From positions 87,777-151,776 of the forward strand of contig JACTUA010000006.1 in assembly GCA_015660865.1 (NCBI GenBank): a DNA stretch of 64,000 nt. The letters run 5' to 3'. Both the position numbers and the translations under genes were made by a program. Source of the stretch: Methanomicrobiales archaeon (lineage in GTDB: Archaea; Halobacteriota; Methanomicrobia; Methanomicrobiales; JACTUA01). Positions 1,025-24,115 of this stretch are shown here, one piece after another; the first letter of the stretch is position 1, and each line of letters begins with the position of its first letter. The notes under the pieces are model-generated. The model did not search any database. It saw only the letters and a list, made by a program, of their open reading frames with translations, and had not been told where the DNA came from.

Positions 1025-1103
1025 GACAACTCCTCGTGAGAGGCTTCGGAGTCCGAAACCAGAGAGTGATGGGGGTGGGGGGCAATATGATTTTGGGTTG
1101 GGG

Positions 1104-1193
1104 AGGTTTCAATGAAACCGACCCTGAGCGACCGCAGTCGCGATACAGAGGTTTCAATGAAACCGACCCGGAGCGACCTCTGTCGCGATATGG
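1104..1193 (+). repeat. Two tandem 45-bp units, each with two short hairpins
   Basis: Unit 1 is aggtttcaatgaaaccgaccctgagcgaccgcagtcgcgatacag (1104-1148) and unit 2 is aggtttcaatgaaaccgacccggagcgacctctgtcgcgatatgg (1149-1193). The stems GGTTTC/GAAACC and GCGAC/GTCGC are kept while the second loop differs (cgca vs ctct). Confidence 0.9.
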
Positions 1194-5037: not shown

Positions 5038-6072
5038 TCAGGTCCCGGGTCCCGTTGCAGGTTCGGGCATCCCCTCGGCCACAAGGTGGTTCATGGTGTT
5101 CTCGCAGATATCCTCGGTGTACTCCCCGATGCGCCGGATAGAGCTGATGACGGCAACGAGGGCAGTGGCGATCTCGCCCTTGTGGTGTTGGGCCATGGTC
5201 TCCATCCCGGCACACCGCTCCTCGAGGGGGGCGGTCATCCCGATGATACGGTGGGAGGCCTCGAGGTCAGCTGCAGAGAAGGCGTCCATGCCCCGGGAGA
5301 AGAGGTCGAGGGCGATATCCATGGACTCCGCGAGGGAGGTCTTCTCCGAGGTCTCGAGCCTCCGTTCCATGAGCTTCTCGGCGTTCTTTGCGATCCTGAC
5401 CCCGTGATCCCCGATCCGCTCGATGATCCGCGAGAGGACGTAGCAGGTCGATGCCGTGCCCGGGGTGATCTTCATGGACCGGCCGAGGTTCGGGTCCGAG
5501 AGGATCAGGTTGTACTGGCGGGCAACGAGCCAGTGGAGCCTGTCCACGTCGTTGTCCCGCTTGATGACATCGGCAGCAAGAGTTTCATTGGTGGCGATAA
5601 GAGCGTTTATGGCGTCCAGGTGCATGGAGCGGACGATGACCGCCATCCGGCTCAGGGTCCGGTCCAGGGGCATCTCCATGGGGTTGAGGAGGTCCTTGAT
5701 GGTGATGGAGGAATCTGTCTCCTCGGATACCTCCTGGCCTATCGTCATCTGGGTGAAATCCCTGACAGCGGTCCTGACAAAGGGCGGCAGCGTGGAGGCC
5801 GACCGGAGCCGGATGACGGAGTAGCCCGCGATATAGGTGGCGATGAGAAGCCTGAAGAGGTAGACCGGGTCCATGTCCCGGGGGACCTCGAAGGTGCGCT
5901 CCCTCCGCGCTTTCTCTTCCGTAAGCTTTGGAGATATGAGGAGGGTCCCGTCGGGCTGTACGAGCACCCCGATGGGGTCGTTCTTCTTGATCTTCTGGGC
6001 CCTGGCCCAGTCCTTGGGGAGGGAGATGATGTACGACGCCCCGCCCGTGACCTGAACCTTCCGCATCTCCAT
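5038..6072 (-). CDS. Phosphate uptake regulator, an AbrB/SpoVT-domain plus PhoU-domain fusion
   Basis: 344 aa. The N-terminus VQVTGGASYIISLPKDWARAQKIKKNDPIGV is an AbrB/SpoVT swapped-hairpin motif. Two PhoU-like helical repeats follow (RDNDVDRLH, ERIGDHGVRIAKN, RRIGEYTEDICEN). The gene is divergent from pstS. Confidence 0.8.
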   Translation of the reverse strand: MEMRKVQVTGGASYIISLPKDWARAQKIKKNDPIGVLVQPDGTLLISPKLTEEKARRERTFEVPRDMDPVYLFRLLIATYIAGYSVIRLRSASTLPPFVRTAVRDFTQMTIGQEVSEETDSSITIKDLLNPMEMPLDRTLSRMAVIVRSMHLDAINALIATNETLAADVIKRDNDVDRLHWLVARQYNLILSDPNLGRSMKITPGTASTCYVLSRIIERIGDHGVRIAKNAEKLMERRLETSEKTSLAESMDIALDLFSRGMDAFSAADLEASHRIIGMTAPLEERCAGMETMAQHHKGEIATALVAVISSIRRIGEYTEDICENTMNHLVAEGMPEPATGPGT

Positions 6073-17440: not shown

Positions 17441-17581
17441 CATCTTCAAGGGGAAAGCCACCCCTCCAACGTTATGCCCCCTTTCACACCCCTCGCAGGG
17501 AAAAGAGCCGGGCCCCAGGGAACCCGCGTAGGAGAGCAGGGTAAGCCTGAGTCCCGTTTCACCTGGACGGGAGTGCAGAAT

Positions 17582-17716
17582 GGATCCGGGCACCGTGGGG
17601 TGCTGTAGGGGATCCGGGCACCGTGGGGTGCTGAGGGAATCCGGGCACCGTGGGGGTGATGAAGGGGATCCGGGCTACCGGAGGGTGCTGAGGGAATCCG
17701 GGCACCGGGCGAACGG
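17582..17716. repeat. About 4.5 tandem copies of a 28-29 bp hairpin-containing repeat
   Basis: The units gatccgggcaccgtggggtgctg(t/-)aggg repeat head to tail at about 17583, 17611, 17639, 17668 and 17696 (the last partial). Each contains GCACC-gtgg-GGTGC. There are no spacers. Confidence 0.9.
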
Positions 17717-19791: not shown

Positions 19792-19948
19792 AGAGAGGAG
19801 AAAAAGAAGGACTAGCAAAAGATCTTCTGGTCAGCTGCCTTACCTTCGGGTCGGCTCTCACTTCACTCCCAGGAGGATCCGGAGATCTGGGAATGCCGGT
19901 ATTGTTATGCTATTTTTCCGGCTGAATCCTACGATTAGGGGTAATTAA

Positions 19949-21058
19949 TTATTTGGCGATTATTTGATTCTCCTCAATCCAATTATCGATTAAATTTGGA
20001 ATGTCTTTCGAAATATTCTTTGAATCGAATTCTTTGTAGAGTTTTCCGATAATATCAGTTGGATAAATTTGATTTTTAATTCTATTATCTTTTAAGATGC
20101 ACACTTTTTTATTTAAACCAAACATGAGGCCAACTTCTAATACTATATTCGGATCAATTTCAACCTCACTCGATGACATACTTGGTGGATCAATAACGGC
20201 GATACCAAATTTAGAACCATATAGATAAGTTATTATATTATTATATACATCACCGTTAAAAACCCGATAATCAGCACGTATTCCTATCAAATTATGTTTT
20301 TTTAATACTTCGTTTATTCTAAGAAATATTTCATCGTTATGAGGATTTTTATCGAATCTCATCATTATAAATGCAATTATTTCAGGATTTTTGAACTCTT
20401 CTTTGAATAATGATAAACTATCTTGAATTTCTTTAGGAATTATTTGGAGATAAGAATCAGAAGTCAGAATGGGTTTTGGTGGTTTTACTTCAATCCCTCC
20501 CACTCCAGTTCCAATCTTTTTTGCGAAGTCGATTGACCCGTAATTAATAAAATTAACCCTTGAATGGGGTAAATCAGGACTTTTTCCAAATCTCATGATC
20601 TTCCAATAATAAATTGATTTAATTGAAATTTCAATTAAAAGTCCGTCGAATTCATTTAATTTATGTAATGAGACGAATATATTAATTTCAAATGGTAAAT
20701 CATCTGTAGTAATGCTTATTTCGTCTAAATATTTGTCACTTGCTTTTTTTCGAACCCCTCTATTTACTAATCGGTCTAAAAATGTTGAGGGGTCATCGAA
20801 ATAAAGATTTGGATGAAATTTTTTGTGGTGAAACGTTAACGATAGCTGTAAGTTTACAAAAGGATTCTCATTTTCCAAGTAATATCCATTTGAATCCAAT
20901 TCGGATTTAACTCTTCGAATGATATTTTCAATTTGTTCTACAGGTGATTTAAGTTGAAGAAAGTATTCTCCTTTAACAATAAAGTGTTCTGGTCCGTATA
21001 GCATTATGATACTATTAGAAGAAGGGAGATTTAATTTATATCCTCGGATGATCACCAA
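19949..21058 (-). CDS. AT-rich orphan protein with an unknown N-terminal region and a C-terminal nucleoside 2-deoxyribosyltransferase/TIR-like Rossmann domain (tentative)
   Basis: This long ORF sits in a block of roughly 22-38% G+C (hand counts of sampled 60-nt lines), against about 68% in the flank. The likely real start is ATG 21004, with gatataaatta about 27 nt upstream. The C-terminal motifs are IAFIMMRF, GIRADY, FGIAVID and PNIVLEVGLMFGLNKKVCIL. Confidence 0.65.
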   Translation of the reverse strand: MVIIRGYKLNLPSSNSIIMLYGPEHFIVKGEYFLQLKSPVEQIENIIRRVKSELDSNGYYLENENPFVNLQLSLTFHHKKFHPNLYFDDPSTFLDRLVNRGVRKKASDKYLDEISITTDDLPFEINIFVSLHKLNEFDGLLIEISIKSIYYWKIMRFGKSPDLPHSRVNFINYGSIDFAKKIGTGVGGIEVKPPKPILTSDSYLQIIPKEIQDSLSLFKEEFKNPEIIAFIMMRFDKNPHNDEIFLRINEVLKKHNLIGIRADYRVFNGDVYNNIITYLYGSKFGIAVIDPPSMSSSEVEIDPNIVLEVGLMFGLNKKVCILKDNRIKNQIYPTDIIGKLYKEFDSKNISKDIPNLIDNWIEENQIIAK

Positions 21059-21177
21059 CCGTTAATCGATATTGGCACTCTCAAACCTAGCATAGAGCTG
21101 GACTATGTCCAAGTTGACACTTGCGATCTACTCGAATAATATCGATATATAATGGCGAACAAAGAAAAATATCCCGG

Positions 21178-21257
21178 TCACCCCATCCCCCACTGCGCCA
21201 ACGTCGTGCGGGACGGGTCCACGTCGTGCCAGTCCCACTCGAGGGCCTTGATGATCC
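21178..21257 (-). repeat. polB 3'-end copy D (most distal)
   Basis: The minus strand reads ...IIKALEWDWHDVDPSRTTLAQWGMG-TGA. It matches copy C at 74/82 positions by hand alignment. It contains the 9-mer acgtcgtgc twice (21201-21209 and 21221-21229). Confidence 0.9.
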
Positions 21258-21322
21258 AGGAATGGTCCCCAGCAGGAGCAACAATCCAATATCACCGGGA
21301 TAATTCACAACTTCGCCGTGAC

Positions 21323-21487
21323 TCATCGCCGGGGCACATTCGCGAGGAGGATTTTTTCAATCTCCTTTAAATCCTCTTTCTTTTGCAGGACCCGGTTCTT
21401 CATGACAAGGGAAATCCGGGAAAGAACCTCGGGATCCCCTTCCTCCACCTTCTGGATGATGAGCTGGATGATATCCTCGGGAGTCAT
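21323..21487 (-). CDS. Possible 54-aa ORF, the only candidate gene in the third cassette
   Basis: The sequence is MTPEDIIQLIIQKVEEGDPEVLSRISLVMKNRVLQKKEDLKEIEKILLANVPRR*. It is below the ORF-track size cutoff and higher in G+C than the AT-rich sequence around it. No motif is recognised, and it may be a gene fragment. Confidence 0.25.
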   Translation of the reverse strand: MTPEDIIQLIIQKVEEGDPEVLSRISLVMKNRVLQKKEDLKEIEKILLANVPRR

Positions 21488-21815: not shown

Positions 21816-21899
21816 TTTTACCCCATCCCCCACTGCGCGAGCGTCGTCCGGGACGGGGCCACGTCGTGCCAGTCCCACCCGAGGGCCTCGATGATCCGG
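21816..21899 (-). repeat. polB 3'-end copy C
   Basis: The minus strand reads ...RIIEALGWDWHDVAPSRTTLAQWGMG-TAA. It matches the genic copy at 75/82 positions by hand alignment, and 2 further nt past the stop also match. Confidence 0.9.
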
Positions 21900-21989: not shown

Positions 21990-22898
21990 TTATTGCCCCT
22001 TAGAATCCTGTTGACTCTTCAACATGAACTGCTGCCATTTGGCGCTCGAGAGATCCGGAAAATATCCTTCTCCTGCCTTAAAGTTTCCGGCGATGAAATG
22101 CCCACCATGACTTGGGGCGATCACGGAATCAAAAAAGTAGTCTTCGTAGTAGTTCCATCTCCAAGTATCATAGCCGTCAAGCCATCCGTTCTGGACTTGA
22201 ATTCGAAGCAGAATAGAGACCGAATCCTGGGTGCCCGGATAGTACCCATGATCCCCCGTTAAATCCGCATAGATCCAGGTAAATTGCATGCTTGAAGTAT
22301 TCGTGTATTTCTTCAATTCTGAGCCCTGCCATGCGGTCGTTTCCTCAACTGGGCTGGGTGGGGAAAAAGAAAACTTTGGAAGGATGATGGATTCATTGCC
22401 AACAGGATAAAGCGTATTTGCGTAATAAGACGGTGATTGAAGGTTATGCGCATTATCGTGTAGCTCGACTCGGTAGGTCTCATTCGGCCAGGAATCTGCA
22501 TGAATGCGGACAAACCAGAGTTCATTAGGGTTGGAAAAGATTTGCTTCCCATTTATATAGCTCAAATTCCATTCAGGAGGGGACGTGGTGAAAGAAATTA
22601 ATAATCCCTCTTTCTCGAAGTCTTCGGGCACGATCGACCGGTTTCCTATCATAGGTCTGCCATTCTTCACCGGGAGCGGAATATAAAAAGTGGCATTTTG
22701 AAGGGGACCATAGTTCTGAATATACAGATCGTATTCAAAACCCTTGGATAGAAATTCAGGAAATACCTCATTGCTTGGCAACAGTGGCATGAGGACGAAG
22801 AATGCGTAACCAAAAATCACGGAGGAGAGGATCCAAAGGATGAGTACAAGGAGGACTGCCGCAAGAATGGCTAATATGACGTTCCTTGAGGAAGACAC
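21990..22898 (-). CDS. Cassette ORF X: signal-anchored extracytoplasmic protein of unknown function
   Basis: 302 aa with a GTG start. The N-terminus has positive charge followed by a TM helix (RNVILAILAAVLLVLILWILSSVIFGYAFFVL). The remainder is aromatic-rich and carries six N-x-S/T sequons (NAT, NRS, NLS, NET, NES, NTS). G+C is clearly below the core genes. Confidence 0.6.
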   Translation of the reverse strand: MSSSRNVILAILAAVLLVLILWILSSVIFGYAFFVLMPLLPSNEVFPEFLSKGFEYDLYIQNYGPLQNATFYIPLPVKNGRPMIGNRSIVPEDFEKEGLLISFTTSPPEWNLSYINGKQIFSNPNELWFVRIHADSWPNETYRVELHDNAHNLQSPSYYANTLYPVGNESIILPKFSFSPPSPVEETTAWQGSELKKYTNTSSMQFTWIYADLTGDHGYYPGTQDSVSILLRIQVQNGWLDGYDTWRWNYYEDYFFDSVIAPSHGGHFIAGNFKAGEGYFPDLSSAKWQQFMLKSQQDSKGQ

Positions 22899-22969
22899 AA
22901 TGAACCACTGGGTCGGGTTTTCAGGTACACTTTCAATATGCTATTATGCTCGGGCCGCCTTGAATCTGT

Positions 22970-23009
22970 CTATCCCATCCCCCACTGCGCGAGCGTCGTC
23001 TGCGACGGG
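22970..23009 (-). repeat. polB 3'-end copy B (short)
   Basis: The minus strand reads ...PSQTTLAQWGMG-TAG. It matches copy C at 36/40 positions, and homology ends after about 40 nt. Confidence 0.85.
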
Positions 23010-23043
23010 TATGCGGATTGCGAGTCCGCTCCAGAATTACTCC

Positions 23044-23967
23044 TTATGAAGGTTCGATCCCCTGCAAAGGTGTTGCCACAGATCTCCCTATGTATTCCTT
23101 GACAGCCGCGAAATTCTCTTCGGTGCAGATAAGGAGGATAATCGGCGATATGGATTTGCTTATTGGCGTGAGCCACGGTTCCGTTCCGATCCGTATTGTC
23201 AGAGAATCGGGGTGAACCTCTACAGCCCTGATAGCACTCCATGGGATGTGGGTGGACTCCCTGGTGAGAAATGCCAGCGAATCAGACATCTCCCCCCAGG
23301 CCATCAGGTAAAGGCCCCACTGCTGGGCTACCGTTAGGAAATTCCTGAAGGATACCCCATCTTCGTCCACCCAGTATTCCGCGAGGCCGGATCCATCGGC
23401 AGCCTCCCTGATGGTGTAGAACATCCTGCCTGCGTTCAACATGTAGGCGACGAGAACTCCCAGGCATACCGCAAGCCCCCAGTCTTTCATTTCCTGATCA
23501 ACCGCGCTTATCGCGATGAGATACATAATAGTCCCAACGAGGCCGGCACTGAGAAGAATCGGAATCCCCAGGCCGAATATCACCACGAGGGACGAGGGGA
23601 TCATCGCTATTCGCCACCTGATGGCGTTACTCTTCCTGTTCCATCCCCGTATTGAGGGAGCATCAGGTTGAACAGGGGCCGGTATGGTCCACCCCTTCAT
23701 GTCGGTGAGCGAGTGCTTCGTGGTTATTGCTACTCCCGCTCCCCCGATAGCATCCATGGCGAGCCTCTTCTTCCACCCCCGATGCAGAAGGTAGATTGCA
23801 GCACCGAAAACGAACAGAAGACCCAGGAGGGGATTGAAGAACAAACCGTCTCCGGTCAACAATTCAGGCCCGGCAAGAAGGAAGGTCAATAGGATTGTGA
23901 TGAGAAGGATCCCGACGATGGCGAGTATCTCGATTTTTTCAGGGGTTTTCCAGCCTGGCATGCTCAT
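23044..23967 (-). CDS. Cassette ORF Y: polytopic membrane protein with a C-terminal soluble domain, function unknown
   Basis: 307 aa with about five hydrophobic segments by eye, followed by a ~110-aa soluble tail (IPWSAIRAVEVHPDSLTIRIG...LLICTEENFAAVKEYI). An attttataa TATA box lies about 25 nt upstream of the ATG. Confidence 0.6.
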   Translation of the reverse strand: MSMPGWKTPEKIEILAIVGILLITILLTFLLAGPELLTGDGLFFNPLLGLLFVFGAAIYLLHRGWKKRLAMDAIGGAGVAITTKHSLTDMKGWTIPAPVQPDAPSIRGWNRKSNAIRWRIAMIPSSLVVIFGLGIPILLSAGLVGTIMYLIAISAVDQEMKDWGLAVCLGVLVAYMLNAGRMFYTIREAADGSGLAEYWVDEDGVSFRNFLTVAQQWGLYLMAWGEMSDSLAFLTRESTHIPWSAIRAVEVHPDSLTIRIGTEPWLTPISKSISPIILLICTEENFAAVKEYIGRSVATPLQGIEPS

Positions 23968-24031: not shown

Positions 24032-24115
24032 TTTTACCCCATCCCGAACTGCGCGAGCGTCGTCCGGGACGGGTCAACGTCGTGCCAGTCCCATCCCAGT
24101 GCCTCGATGATCCGG
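24032..24115 (-). repeat. polB 3'-end copy A (functional gene terminus and candidate attachment site)
   Basis: This is the last 27 codons plus the TAA of polB (...SRIIEALGWDWHDVDPSRTTLAQFGMG*). It is the reference for copies B, C and D. Confidence 0.9.

What the first reader, a model, noticed from the sequence alone, without database searches (positions are those of the whole stretch)
19949..21058. Strongly AT-rich orphan ORF with a C-terminal NDT/TIR-like Rossmann domain, a candidate single-gene defence or toxin module at the edge of the polB island
A block of about 1.1 kb drops to roughly 22-38% G+C (hand counts of sampled 60-nt lines), while the neighbouring DUF333 gene is about 68%. This is the sharpest compositional break in the window, so recent foreign origin is likely. 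The block encodes one 351-369 aa protein. The last ~140 aa carry the motif series IAFIMMRF, GIRADY, ITYLYGSKFGIAVID and PNIVLEVGLMFGLNKKVCILKD. This parallels the pattern (h-h-MPF, RAD, I..I..a..vIADlt, NPNV.yElG.A..lgK.vi.l) of the nucleoside 2-deoxyribosyltransferase-like/TIR-like flavodoxin-fold family, including a Glu at the position of the NDT catalytic nucleophile. Bacterial members of this fold often occur in defence islands as NAD+/nucleotide-processing effectors fused to variable sensor domains. The ~210-aa N-terminal region matches nothing I recognise. The gene has its own TATA (gatataaatta about 27 nt before ATG 21004) and lies outside the outermost polB-end copy, so it is probably an independent acquisition at the same hotspot.
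Basis: partly seen in the sequence, partly recalled or inferred. Interest (0 to 1): 0.7.

Follow-up and report, generated by a model that had tools for sequence, protein, structure and literature searches.

The report
Foreign TIR-like candidate defence gene
A methanogen genome carries a recently imported, very AT-rich gene whose back half is a TIR/NDT-type enzyme domain and whose front half is a rare unknown domain; it is most likely a one-gene antiviral "suicide" switch, a plausible but unproven member of an already recognised class.

Summary
Window 19949-21004 (- strand) is a real 351-aa gene at 29.5% G+C in a 61-64% G+C Methanomicrobiales genome. It contains the lowest-G+C stretch in the window.

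- **C-terminal domain (residues ~186-351).** It models at pLDDT >90 as a flavodoxin-like fold. It just passes Pfam's TIR model PF10137 (CAP12/Pycsar effector). Its nearest solved structures are nucleoside deoxyribosyltransferases, DNPH1, TIR-STING and SARM1-TIR. The Glu of LEVG (E290) is invariant in 77 relatives and lies in helix αC, where TIR and NDT enzymes carry their catalytic Glu.
- **Family.** This ~158-aa module occurs in at least 930 protein clusters, nearly always at the C-terminus, behind at least 32 unrelated N-terminal regions.
- **N-terminal domain.** It is very rare (about 10 clusters in billions of proteins). In five of them it is paired with a different helical C-terminus.
- **Context.** Homologues are usually more AT-rich than their hosts and have no conserved partner gene. 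They often sit beside restriction-modification, Abi, CBASS or integrase genes. Three syntenic relatives lack the gene.

Best reading: a single-gene sensor-effector defence or toxin protein with an NAD+/nucleotide glycohydrolase effector. NCBI already labels it "TIR domain-containing protein". No activity has been demonstrated.

The parts
19949..21004 (-). CDS of 351 aa plus stop, the whole sensor-effector protein. The same sequence is NCBI MGA2933829.1, annotated 'TIR domain-containing protein'.
   Evidence: ORF list. The exact protein is in public collections on at least 23 contigs. Homologues were found.
20450..21004 (-). N-terminal domain, residues 1-185. It is a rare orphan alpha/beta domain and the proposed sensor.
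   Evidence: No Pfam, NCBIfam, PADLOC or PDB sequence match. Only 7 cluster representatives in 1.84e9 proteins. It is shared with P0078-82, which carry a different C-terminus. AF2 gives pLDDT 70 and pTM 0.70. No significant fold match was found.
19949..20449 (-). C-terminal TIR/NDT-like flavodoxin-fold domain, residues 186-351 plus stop. It is the proposed glycohydrolase effector.
   Evidence: PF10137 at 25.1 bits against a cutoff of 24.7. pLDDT >90. Foldseek hits to NDT, DNPH1, TIR-STING and SARM1. At least 930 related clusters.
20135..20137 (-). Codon GAA for E290, the putative catalytic Glu in the LEVG motif.
   Evidence: Invariant in 77 relatives. It lies in model helix 285-296, which is αC. 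It aligns to residue 101 of 1s2d at E=0.25. Codon position.
20054..20056 (-). Codon for D317, an invariant Asp in the loop between strand 4 and the next helix (a 'DD-loop'-like position).
   Evidence: Invariant. The loop position comes from the model. SfSTING D110 sits 26 residues after catalytic E84 and completes the neighbouring subunit's site (PMC9402430). The equivalence is inferred from spacing only.
21033..21040 (-). TATAAATT, an archaeal TATA-box-like element 28 nt upstream of ATG 21004. It implies a leaderless or very short-leader mRNA.
   Evidence: Read directly from the sequence. Its function is inferred.
21176..21259 (.). Outermost 84-nt copy of the polB 3' end. It marks the boundary between the polB cassette array and the AT-rich block.
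   Evidence: Repeat family D1, 88% identical to the reference copy. No further copy lies beyond the gene.

Best explanation
The gene encodes a one-protein sensor-effector module of the abortive-infection/toxin type. It was horizontally acquired by a Methanomicrobiales archaeon at a variable spot between polB and a DUF333 gene.

The C-terminal ~160 residues form a TIR/NDT-superfamily flavodoxin-fold N-glycohydrolase. Its invariant Glu (E290, with N286 four residues before it) would attack the ribosyl-base bond of NAD+. NAD+ is the most likely substrate by analogy with the PF10137 TIR domains of TIR-STING and PycTIR.

The rare N-terminal ~185-residue domain would hold the enzyme inactive until it recognises a trigger, either a viral protein or a small molecule. 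Trigger binding would drive self-association. That would bring TIR-like domains together so that the invariant loop Asp (D317) of one subunit completes the active site of its neighbour. NAD+ or nucleotide depletion would then stop growth of the infected cell.

Shown here: the gene, its foreign composition, the fold, the conserved residues, the domain shuffling and the genomic contexts. Inferred: enzyme activity, substrate, activation by oligomerisation and the antiviral role.
For: - **Real, foreign, lineage-specific gene.** It has 29.5% G+C in a 61-64% genome. It is present with an identical sequence on at least 23 contigs of one clonal population. It is absent from three syntenic relatives with polB 91%, 84% and 75% identical.
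- **Fold.** PF10137 passes the Pfam cutoff. AF2 pLDDT is >90 for residues 190-351, with beta-alpha topology. Foldseek finds NDT, DNPH1, TIR-STING and SARM1 TIR at probability 1.0 and TM 0.5-0.7 normalised to the target.
- **Catalytic signature.** E290, G292, K299, D317, Y323, F212, M215, N256 and F266 are invariant. N286 and the RAD motif are >=90% conserved. E290 lies in helix αC, where the catalytic Glu sits in the TIR-like hydrolases compared in PMC9402430. The N-x3-E...D(+27) spacing mirrors SfSTING N80/E84/D110.
- **Effector-like behaviour.** The 158-aa module has a constant length, is C-terminal, and is joined to 32 unrelated N-terminal regions in 77 proteins. These include AbiJ_NTD5, B_lectin, FtsZ and Polbeta. 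It also occurs alone at 157-169 aa.
- **Domain swapping.** The N-terminal domain recurs with a second, unrelated C-terminus. It is less conserved than the C-terminus (17-36% versus 34-46% identity).
- **Contexts.** P0002 sits beside a DEAD/SNF2 helicase, AAA_15 and a Dnd-associated gene. P0075 is beside Mrr and a SMODS/Cap17 operon. P0039 is near an integrase fragment, FRG and a Gp49/HTH pair. P0058 is in an operon with a TIR_2 gene on an integrative element. P0111 is beside a PNP_UDP-TPR-PIN giant. P0186 lies among other TIR genes. Among 139 neighbour ORFs at 38 further loci, most of the recurring families are restriction-modification, Abi_alpha, Schlafen/AlbA_2, PD-T4-6 kinase, mad2/mad6, FRG and integrase.
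- **Horizontal mobility.** Homologous genes are usually more AT-rich than their hosts.
- **Single-gene unit.** No conserved partner gene was found.
- **Host-side, not viral.** There are no relatives in 2.9 million viral contigs.
Against: - No member of this subfamily has been tested experimentally, and no paper on it was found.
- The TIR assignment is marginal at sequence level: 25.1 bits against 24.7, and only 31 of 77 relatives hit PF10137 at E<0.01 while 44 hit NDT.
- Profile searches find no significant PDB relative by sequence. Foldseek E-values are only about 1e-3.
- PADLOC gives only weak hits to an untested candidate, PDC-S35.
- Four of ten annotated contexts are housekeeping or uninformative. 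Most of the 139 neighbour ORFs are unique. No background rate was computed.
- The N-terminal model has only moderate confidence, and nothing identifies a ligand or trigger.
- The N286/E290/D317 equivalence to SfSTING rests on spacing and topology, not on a superposition.
- The window protein has D rather than the family's N at position 284.
- The population is clonal, so there is no evidence of selection on the gene.
Confidence: 0.5

Rival explanations
1. Same architecture and a conflict or toxin role, but the C-terminal domain acts like NDT, DNPH1 or MilB. It would cleave or transfer the base of (deoxy)nucleotides or nucleosides rather than NAD+, depleting or corrupting the nucleotide pool.
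For: More relatives match the NDT model PF05014 (44 of 77) than PF10137 (31 of 77). Apart from one spurious hit, the top Foldseek hits are NDTs and DNPH1. The only PDB profile alignment to an enzyme of this fold is to a purine deoxyribosyltransferase, with the Glu aligned. The first strand reads AFIMMxF, closer to my recollection of the NDT pattern than to the 'FIvHG' of PF10137 (sequence; Pfam consensus from own knowledge).
Against: PF05014 never reaches its cutoff: 18 bits against 28.8 for this protein, and a best E of 8.8e-6 in the family. PF10137 matches are stronger where they occur (best 5e-11). The second half of the domain (NPNVSLEVGY...K.VCLLKD...L.TDL.GKLY.FD) follows my recollection (own knowledge, not checked here) of the PF10137 consensus, including the loop Asp.
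Confidence: 0.2
2. The conserved C-terminal domain is not the killer. It would be a nucleotide-binding sensor or regulator (SLOG-like) or a signal-generating TIR (ThsB-like). The variable N-terminal regions, or separate genes, would be the effectors.
For: Three relatives carry a canonical TIR_2 domain in front of this module, and one carries a Polbeta nucleotidyltransferase. The FtsZ fusion sits in an operon with a separate TIR_2 protein. Rossmann-like NDT/SLOG domains serve as ligand sensors in Thoeris ThsA (PMC11204291 abstract).
Against: E290 and its neighbouring polar residues are invariant, as expected for catalysis. Many N-terminal partners (B_lectin, AbiJ_NTD5, FtsZ) are not known killing domains. 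No conserved partner gene exists near the window gene or its full-length homologues. The N-terminal domain is swapped onto another C-terminus, which fits a shared sensor better.
Confidence: 0.1
3. The gene has no defence role. It would be a passenger or decaying remnant of a mobile element, possibly an addiction toxin or a silent gene, or a housekeeping nucleoside-salvage enzyme.
For: It lies at the end of an array of orphan cassettes with no integrase. The extreme AT bias suggests very recent arrival. The clonal population gives no evidence of purifying selection. Some homologues sit among housekeeping genes.
Against: The ORF is intact despite an 8% stop-codon frequency. All family-invariant residues are retained. 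A TATA box is correctly placed. Salvage NDTs are stand-alone ~150-170 aa enzymes without variable N-terminal domains (own knowledge). The gene is fixed on all contigs seen.
Confidence: 0.12

Closest known systems
PF10137-type TIR effector domains of CBASS and Pycsar (TIR-STING / Cap12, PycTIR, TIR-SAVED)
   Same: It just meets the Pfam PF10137 model. It has the same flavodoxin-like fold, with TIR-STING structures 9lmq and 7un8 among the Foldseek hits. The Glu lies in αC with an Asn four residues before it and a loop Asp about 27 residues after it, as in SfSTING N80/E84/D110. UniRef names a 291-aa relative from Gimesia benthica after this family.
   Different: There is no STING, SAVED or cNMP-binding domain, and no cyclase or CD-NTase gene nearby. 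The TIR-like domain is C-terminal, behind an orphan domain. The first strand motif is AFIMMxF rather than FIvHG. Only 40% of relatives are recognised by the Pfam model.
Nucleoside 2-deoxyribosyltransferase / DNPH1 (Rcl) / MilB family (PF05014, clan Nribosyltransf)
   Same: These are the best structural matches: 2a0k, 9emx, 4kxm and 8qc0. Sub-threshold PF05014 hits occur in 44 of 77 relatives. The Glu aligns with residue 101 of 1s2d, recalled as the nucleophile.
   Different: Scores are below the Pfam cutoff. Those enzymes are stand-alone metabolic proteins. This one is fused to variable N-terminal regions, is compositionally foreign, and often sits in defence or mobile-element contexts.
Swarozyc / DUF4062 (NIR) TIR-like NADase single-gene defence (bioRxiv 10.64898/2026.05.01.722283)
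   Same: The concept is the same: a TIR-like domain intermediate between TIR and NDT, with a conserved Glu, accessory sensor domains and defence islands. DUF4062 is an NADase activated by assembly with a phage protein.
   Different: No Pfam DUF4062 match was found even at E<=10, so this is a separate family. The trigger is unknown.
Single-gene TIR-domain antiphage proteins of E. coli (PMC11350192) and the PADLOC candidate PDC-S35
   Same: Both combine one gene, a TIR-type domain and a variable partner domain. 37.5% of tested E. coli TIR proteins were antiphage. There are weak HMM matches to PDC-S35: E=0.0025 for this protein and a best of 4e-7 in the family.
   Different: Those proteins carry canonical TIR or TIR_2 domains in bacteria. 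The PDC-S35 similarity is weak, and no paper mentioning PDC-S35 was found.

Membership tests
PF10137 CAP12/Pycsar-effector TIR domain | Score at or above Pfam's gathering cutoff for the family HMM | tested here: met
   25.1-25.2 bits against a cutoff of 24.7, E=1.9e-5, covering profile positions 8-118 of 119. The pass is marginal. Only 31 of 77 relatives match at E<0.01 (best 5e-11).
PF10137 CAP12/Pycsar-effector TIR domain | Flavodoxin-like TIR fold with the catalytic Glu in helix αC | tested here: met
   AF2 pLDDT is >90 with beta-alpha topology. E290 lies in helix 285-296, the third helix, and is invariant. Foldseek hits TIR-STING and SARM1 TIR. The αC rule is taken from PMC9402430.
PF10137 CAP12/Pycsar-effector TIR domain | Active-site Asn (-4) and a trans-acting loop Asp that completes the neighbour's site | tested here: inconclusive
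   N286 and D317 are conserved, with spacing like SfSTING N80/E84/D110. No residue-level superposition could be made.
PF10137 CAP12/Pycsar-effector TIR domain | Fusion to a cyclic-nucleotide receptor (STING, SAVED, cNMP-binding) and a neighbouring cyclase or CD-NTase gene | tested here: not met
   The N-terminus matches no known domain. The neighbours are DUF333, a histone deacetylase, orphans and polB.
PF10137 CAP12/Pycsar-effector TIR domain | NAD+ glycohydrolase activity | not testable with these tools
   This needs an enzyme assay.
Nucleoside 2-deoxyribosyltransferase (PF05014) | Score at or above Pfam's gathering cutoff | tested here: not met
   18.0-18.2 bits against a cutoff of 28.8.
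Nucleoside 2-deoxyribosyltransferase (PF05014) | Glu nucleophile at the end of strand 4 / start of the following helix | tested here: inconclusive
   A profile alignment puts the family's E on residue 101 (FEIG) of 1s2d, but at E=0.25. That residue 101 is the nucleophile is my own recollection.
Nucleoside 2-deoxyribosyltransferase (PF05014) | Stand-alone ~150-170 aa salvage enzyme | tested here: not met
   The protein is 351 aa with a 185-aa extra domain. Stand-alone forms of the module do exist elsewhere.
DUF4062 / Swarozyc TIR-like NADase | Match to the DUF4062 Pfam model | tested here: not met
   Not listed even at E<=10.
Thoeris (ThsB TIR plus ThsA-type effector) | TIR gene in an operon with a signal-activated effector gene | tested here: not met
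   No conserved neighbour is shared between the window and the homologue loci. The adjacent genes are orphans of different G+C, separated by polB-end copies.
Defence-island-associated single-gene systems (generic criterion) | Homologues enriched next to known defence or mobile-element genes | tested here: inconclusive
   6 of 10 annotated contexts are defence- or mobile-element-like. Most of the recurring neighbour families at 38 more loci are restriction-modification, Abi, Schlafen, PD-T4-6, mad or integrase. No background rate was computed.

The most novel reading that the evidence does not exclude
The C-terminal module (at least 930 clusters, intermediate between TIR and NDT and experimentally untouched) might be an immune effector with a chemistry not yet described for TIR domains, for example base excision from nucleotides or a new signalling product. 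The ~185-aa N-terminal domain might be a previously unknown sensor fold. It is swapped between this effector and a second, unidentified helical effector, which would define a new archaeal/bacterial single-gene immune family.
Probability: 0.15. Interest if true: 0.6.

Novelty: new variant of a known kind. Interest (0 to 1): 0.38.

Why it matters
Archaeal antiviral immunity beyond CRISPR and restriction-modification is poorly charted, and methanogens have few tractable examples.

This gene is a clean, compact candidate: one protein, with a clear catalytic residue to mutate, from an uncharacterised subfamily of at least 930 clusters that bridges TIR NADases and nucleoside deoxyribosyltransferases.

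Its rare N-terminal domain, shared with a second effector type, could reveal a new trigger-recognition module.

If it turns out to be only another NADase-type abortive-infection protein, it adds a member and an archaeal host to a well-known theme and no new principle.

Tried and rejected
- **PDB sequence searches.** I tried the full protein, the full-family profile, the C-terminal profile and relative P0064, which has a precomputed PF10137 annotation. None gave a significant hit. Only the E=0.25 NDT alignment was informative.
- **NCBIfam.** No match.
- **PADLOC.** Only weak PDC-S35 hits.
- **PHROGs.** One weak hit to a family of unknown function.
- **Viral contigs.** No relative of the C-terminal module, so a virus-encoded or anti-defence origin is not supported.
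- **Second C-terminus of P0078-82.** There was no Pfam, PADLOC or PDB match. One member hit DUF4145 at E=0.05. It remains unresolved.
- **Fifth polB-end copy beyond the gene.** None found, so the gene cannot be shown to be a bounded cassette.
- **Conserved operon partner.** I tested the orphan membrane genes 21990-22898 and 23044-23967. Neither occurs at any homologue locus.
- **Within-population variation as a test for selection.** The population is clonal, so this was uninformative.
- **Literature.** No paper describes this subfamily or PDC-S35.
Full report
**1. The observation**

The ORF 19949..21058 (- strand) exists. The biologically likely start is ATG 21004, giving 351 aa. That is the product present in public collections (NCBI MGA2933829.1). 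A TATAAATT element at 21040-21033 lies 28 nt upstream of it, and the TTG at 21058 lies upstream of that element.

The CDS is 29.5% G+C. The 19.8 kb to its left is 60.9% and the 37 kb beyond polB is 64.4%. The only 500-nt windows below 47% G+C in the whole 64 kb lie between 19651 and 23050, and the minimum of 27.6% falls inside this gene. The AT-rich block runs from about 19900 to 21175 and directly abuts the outermost 84-nt copy of the polB 3' end at 21176-21259.

An open frame of 351 codons at this composition would arise by chance with probability about 1.6e-13. The quoted motifs are all present. Two small corrections apply. DUF333 is 58.7% G+C, not about 68%. The 60-nt lines range from 18% to 42%.

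**2. Host and setting**

Flanking proteins are named by NCBI as coming from a 'MAG: Methanomicrobiales archaeon'. The identical gene, in the identical arrangement (polB, two orphan genes, small ORFs, this gene, then convergent DUF333, a histone deacetylase, GyrI-like and an epimerase), is found on at least 23 contigs from many samples. Those contigs are essentially 100% identical across the gene and its flanks, so this is one clonal population.

A scan of 185,579 species genomes with polB found no genome of this species. It did find three syntenic relatives, L025 (polB 91% identical), L023 (84%) and L027 (75%), that keep polB...DUF333-HDAC but lack this gene and the two orphan genes.

- In L025 the interval holds a 295-aa P-loop gene of normal G+C. 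That gene has no homologue in the window.
- In L023 the interval holds a membrane ORF followed by its own polB-end copy.
- In L027 the interval holds other ORFs.

The polB-DUF333 interval is therefore a true variable spot, and the gene is a lineage-specific acquisition.

No additional polB-end copy lies between 19400 and 21180 (score 22 against a shuffle maximum of 26). Whether it arrived independently or is the oldest cassette cannot be decided.

**3. The C-terminal domain**

*Sequence evidence.* Pfam gives PF10137 (CAP12/Pycsar effector TIR domain) at E=1.9e-5 and 25.1 bits against a cutoff of 24.7. PF05014 (nucleoside 2-deoxyribosyltransferase) scores 18 bits against a cutoff of 28.8.

*Structure evidence.* An AlphaFold2 model built with 77 homologues has pLDDT >90 over residues 190-351. 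Its topology is strand-helix repeated five times. Foldseek against the PDB returns NDTs (2a0k, 9emx, 8qc0), DNPH1/Rcl (4kxm, 9s0o), TIR-STING (9lmq, 7un8) and SARM1 TIR. These have probability 1.0, E about 1e-3 and TM 0.5-0.7 normalised to the target.

*Conserved residues.* In 77 relatives the invariant residues are F212, M215, N256, F266, E290, G292, K299, D317 and Y323. The RAD motif and N286 are at least 90% conserved.

- E290 lies in the third helix (285-296). [quoted passage not shown]
- A profile of the module aligns its E with residue 101 (the FEIG motif) of L. helveticus purine deoxyribosyltransferase 1s2d. I recall that residue to be the catalytic nucleophile. The alignment is not significant (E=0.25).
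- The N286-x3-E290...D317 pattern mirrors SfSTING N80, E84 and the loop residue D110, which enters the neighbouring subunit's active site on filament formation. This equivalence rests on spacing and topology only.

The family sits between the TIR and NDT clans: 44 of 77 relatives touch PF05014 and 31 of 77 touch PF10137, with a best E of 5e-11.

**4. Family architecture**

The first search found 77 relatives. Only three (P0002, P0003, P0005) are full-length homologues at 32-36% identity. The rest share only the last ~158 residues.

The module has a constant length and is at the very C-terminus in 69 of the 77 proteins (tail of 11 residues or fewer). It follows 32 mutually unrelated N-terminal regions. 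These include AbiJ_NTD5, B_lectin, FtsZ/tubulin, a Polbeta nucleotidyltransferase, a sheath-initiator domain and canonical TIR_2.

A profile search finds 930 clusters at E<=1e-3, in bacteria (Planctomycetota, Bacteroidota, Chloroflexota) and archaea (Methanoperedens, Methanobacterium). Stand-alone forms of 157-169 aa are among them. UniRef names one relative after the CAP12/Pycsar TIR domain. At least 288 copies were confirmed in JGI metagenomes. None was found in 2.9 million viral contigs.

**5. The N-terminal domain**

It matches nothing in Pfam, NCBIfam, PADLOC or the PDB. An exhaustive HMMER scan of 1.84 billion representatives found seven clusters. A profile search added two more full-length homologues, P0110 and P0111.

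Five of these proteins (P0078-P0082) share the N-terminal ~180 residues but end in an unrelated helical domain of ~130 residues. That domain has its own invariant F, N, Y, H and E. It could not be identified; one member hit DUF4145 at E=0.05.

The AF2 model of the N-terminal domain reaches pLDDT 70 and pTM 0.70. It has no significant structural neighbour. There is only weak resemblance to helix-grip folds such as the BamC N-domain, Bet v 1 and PYL receptors, and nothing in viral structures.

One domain joined to two alternative C-termini, and one C-terminal module joined to dozens of N-termini, is the combinatorial pattern expected of sensor-effector immune proteins. The lower conservation of the N-terminus (17-36% identity versus 34-46% for the C-terminus) fits a sensor role.

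**6. Genomic contexts of relatives**

Contexts with precomputed annotation that look like defence or mobile-element regions:

- P0002 sits next to a DEAD/SNF2 helicase, an AAA_15 ATPase, a Dnd-associated protein and an HTH_17 gene.
- P0075 (Methanobacterium formicicum) is next to an Mrr endonuclease and a SMODS/Cap17-like operon.
- P0039 is near an integrase fragment, FRG and a Gp49/HTH pair.
- P0058 (the FtsZ fusion) is the third gene of an operon that begins with a TIR_2 protein, on an element with integrase, ParB and UmuDC.
- P0111 is convergent with a 1292-aa PNP_UDP-TPR-PIN protein.
- P0186 (Gimesia benthica) lies among another PF10137 gene, DUF2971 and a TIR_2 gene.

Four contexts are housekeeping or uninformative.

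I also took the four nearest ORFs at 38 further metagenomic loci, 139 proteins in all. The Pfam and PADLOC families that recur among them are mostly defence- or mobile-element-related:

- ResIII
- MmeI-type IIG restriction-modification
- type I and type III restriction-modification
- N6_N4 methylase
- Abi_alpha
- Schlafen/AlbA_2
- PD-T4-6-like kinases
- mad2 and mad6
- FRG / PDC-S15
- phage integrase

A few recurring families are not obviously defence-related, namely peptidases and pentapeptide repeats. No single partner family recurs, and no neighbour of the window gene occurs at any homologue locus, so the unit is a single gene. Homologues are typically more AT-rich than their hosts, for example 31% against 49%, 44% against 61% and 31% against 52%. 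That indicates habitual horizontal transfer.

I did not compute a background rate, so the defence association is qualitative.

**7. Mechanism**

The best-supported model is a single-protein abortive-infection or toxin module.

1. The N-terminal domain senses a trigger. (Inferred.)
2. Sensing drives self-association. (Inferred, by analogy with TIR-STING, TIR-SAVED, PycTIR and Swarozyc.)
3. Paired TIR-like domains form composite active sites in which E290 cleaves the nicotinamide-ribosyl bond of NAD+. (Inferred from fold and invariant residues.)

The main rival keeps the architecture but changes the chemistry to NDT/DNPH1-type cleavage of nucleotides. This is favoured by the slightly stronger structural and NDT-profile signals.

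Less likely readings are that the module is a ligand sensor or a signal generator, which the TIR_2 and nucleotidyltransferase fusions and the TIR_2 operon hint at, or that the gene is a silent passenger.

**8. Novelty and verdict**

The domain class is known, and NCBI already calls this protein 'TIR domain-containing'. Single-gene TIR or TIR-like defence proteins with variable sensors are established (PMC11350192; DUF4062/Swarozyc).

What is new is modest:

- an experimentally untouched, TIR/NDT-intermediate subfamily of at least 930 clusters;
- a very rare N-terminal domain shared with a second effector type;
- an archaeal (methanogen) host, at a polB-adjacent variable spot.

I rate it a new variant of a known kind, with interest 0.38. 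No paper describing this subfamily or the PADLOC candidate PDC-S35 was found.

Noticed in passing
window 21176-21259, 21816-21899, 22968-23051, 24032-24115: There are four copies of the last ~84 nt of polB (63-100% identical). In polB orientation, each is followed by a single orphan gene of different G+C: 23044-23967 at 54%, 21990-22898 at 46%, a 54-aa ORF at 21323-21487, then the AT-rich gene. No integrase lies in the island. Relative L023 also has one polB-end copy (5937-5999) right after a 264-aa membrane ORF. It looks like repeated cassette insertion at the polB 3' end by an unidentified mechanism.
   Followed up: partly
L025:13670-22241: In the closest relative (polB 91% identical), about 7.3 kb is inserted between DUF333 and the histone deacetylase gene, which are adjacent in the window. 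This is a second variable spot next to the first.
   Followed up: no
window 17570-17712: A short array of 27-28-nt direct repeats (GGGAATCCGGGCACCGTGGGGTGCTGA-like, at least 4 copies) lies in the intergenic region between the epimerase and GyrI-like genes.
   Followed up: no
window 1103-1190: Two adjacent 43-nt direct repeats (93% identical, 45-nt spacing) begin with GAGGTTTCAATGAAACCGACCC.
   Followed up: no
L018:5106-9470: A three-gene operon encodes a TIR_2 protein (459 aa), an unknown 503-aa protein and an FtsZ/tubulin fused to the same C-terminal TIR-like module (P0058, 489 aa). It sits on an element with integrase, ParB, HTH_17 and UmuDC. The protein is indexed in 87 blocks of the assembly collection, so it is abundant. 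It is a candidate multi-gene TIR system involving a tubulin-like protein.
   Followed up: no
P0078-P0082 (proteins; no loci fetched): Five proteins share the rare N-terminal domain but end in an unidentified ~130-aa helical domain with invariant F, N, Y, H and E. One member hits DUF4145 at E=0.05. This may be a second effector for the same sensor.
   Followed up: partly
L102:8001-13879: A stand-alone copy of the TIR-like module (P0164, 162 aa) is followed on the same strand by an ArsR-type HTH gene and at least six AHSA1/Polyketide_cyc2 (SRPBCC, helix-grip) genes. This is curious given the weak helix-grip resemblance of the window protein's N-terminal model, but it may be coincidence.
   Followed up: no
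L101:3330-15205 (Gimesia benthica CP043930.1): A cluster of separate TIR-type genes contains a PF10137 protein, the 291-aa relative P0186 and a TIR_2 protein, interspersed with DUF2971 and a 1427-aa orphan. It looks like a TIR-rich island in a planctomycete.
   Followed up: no
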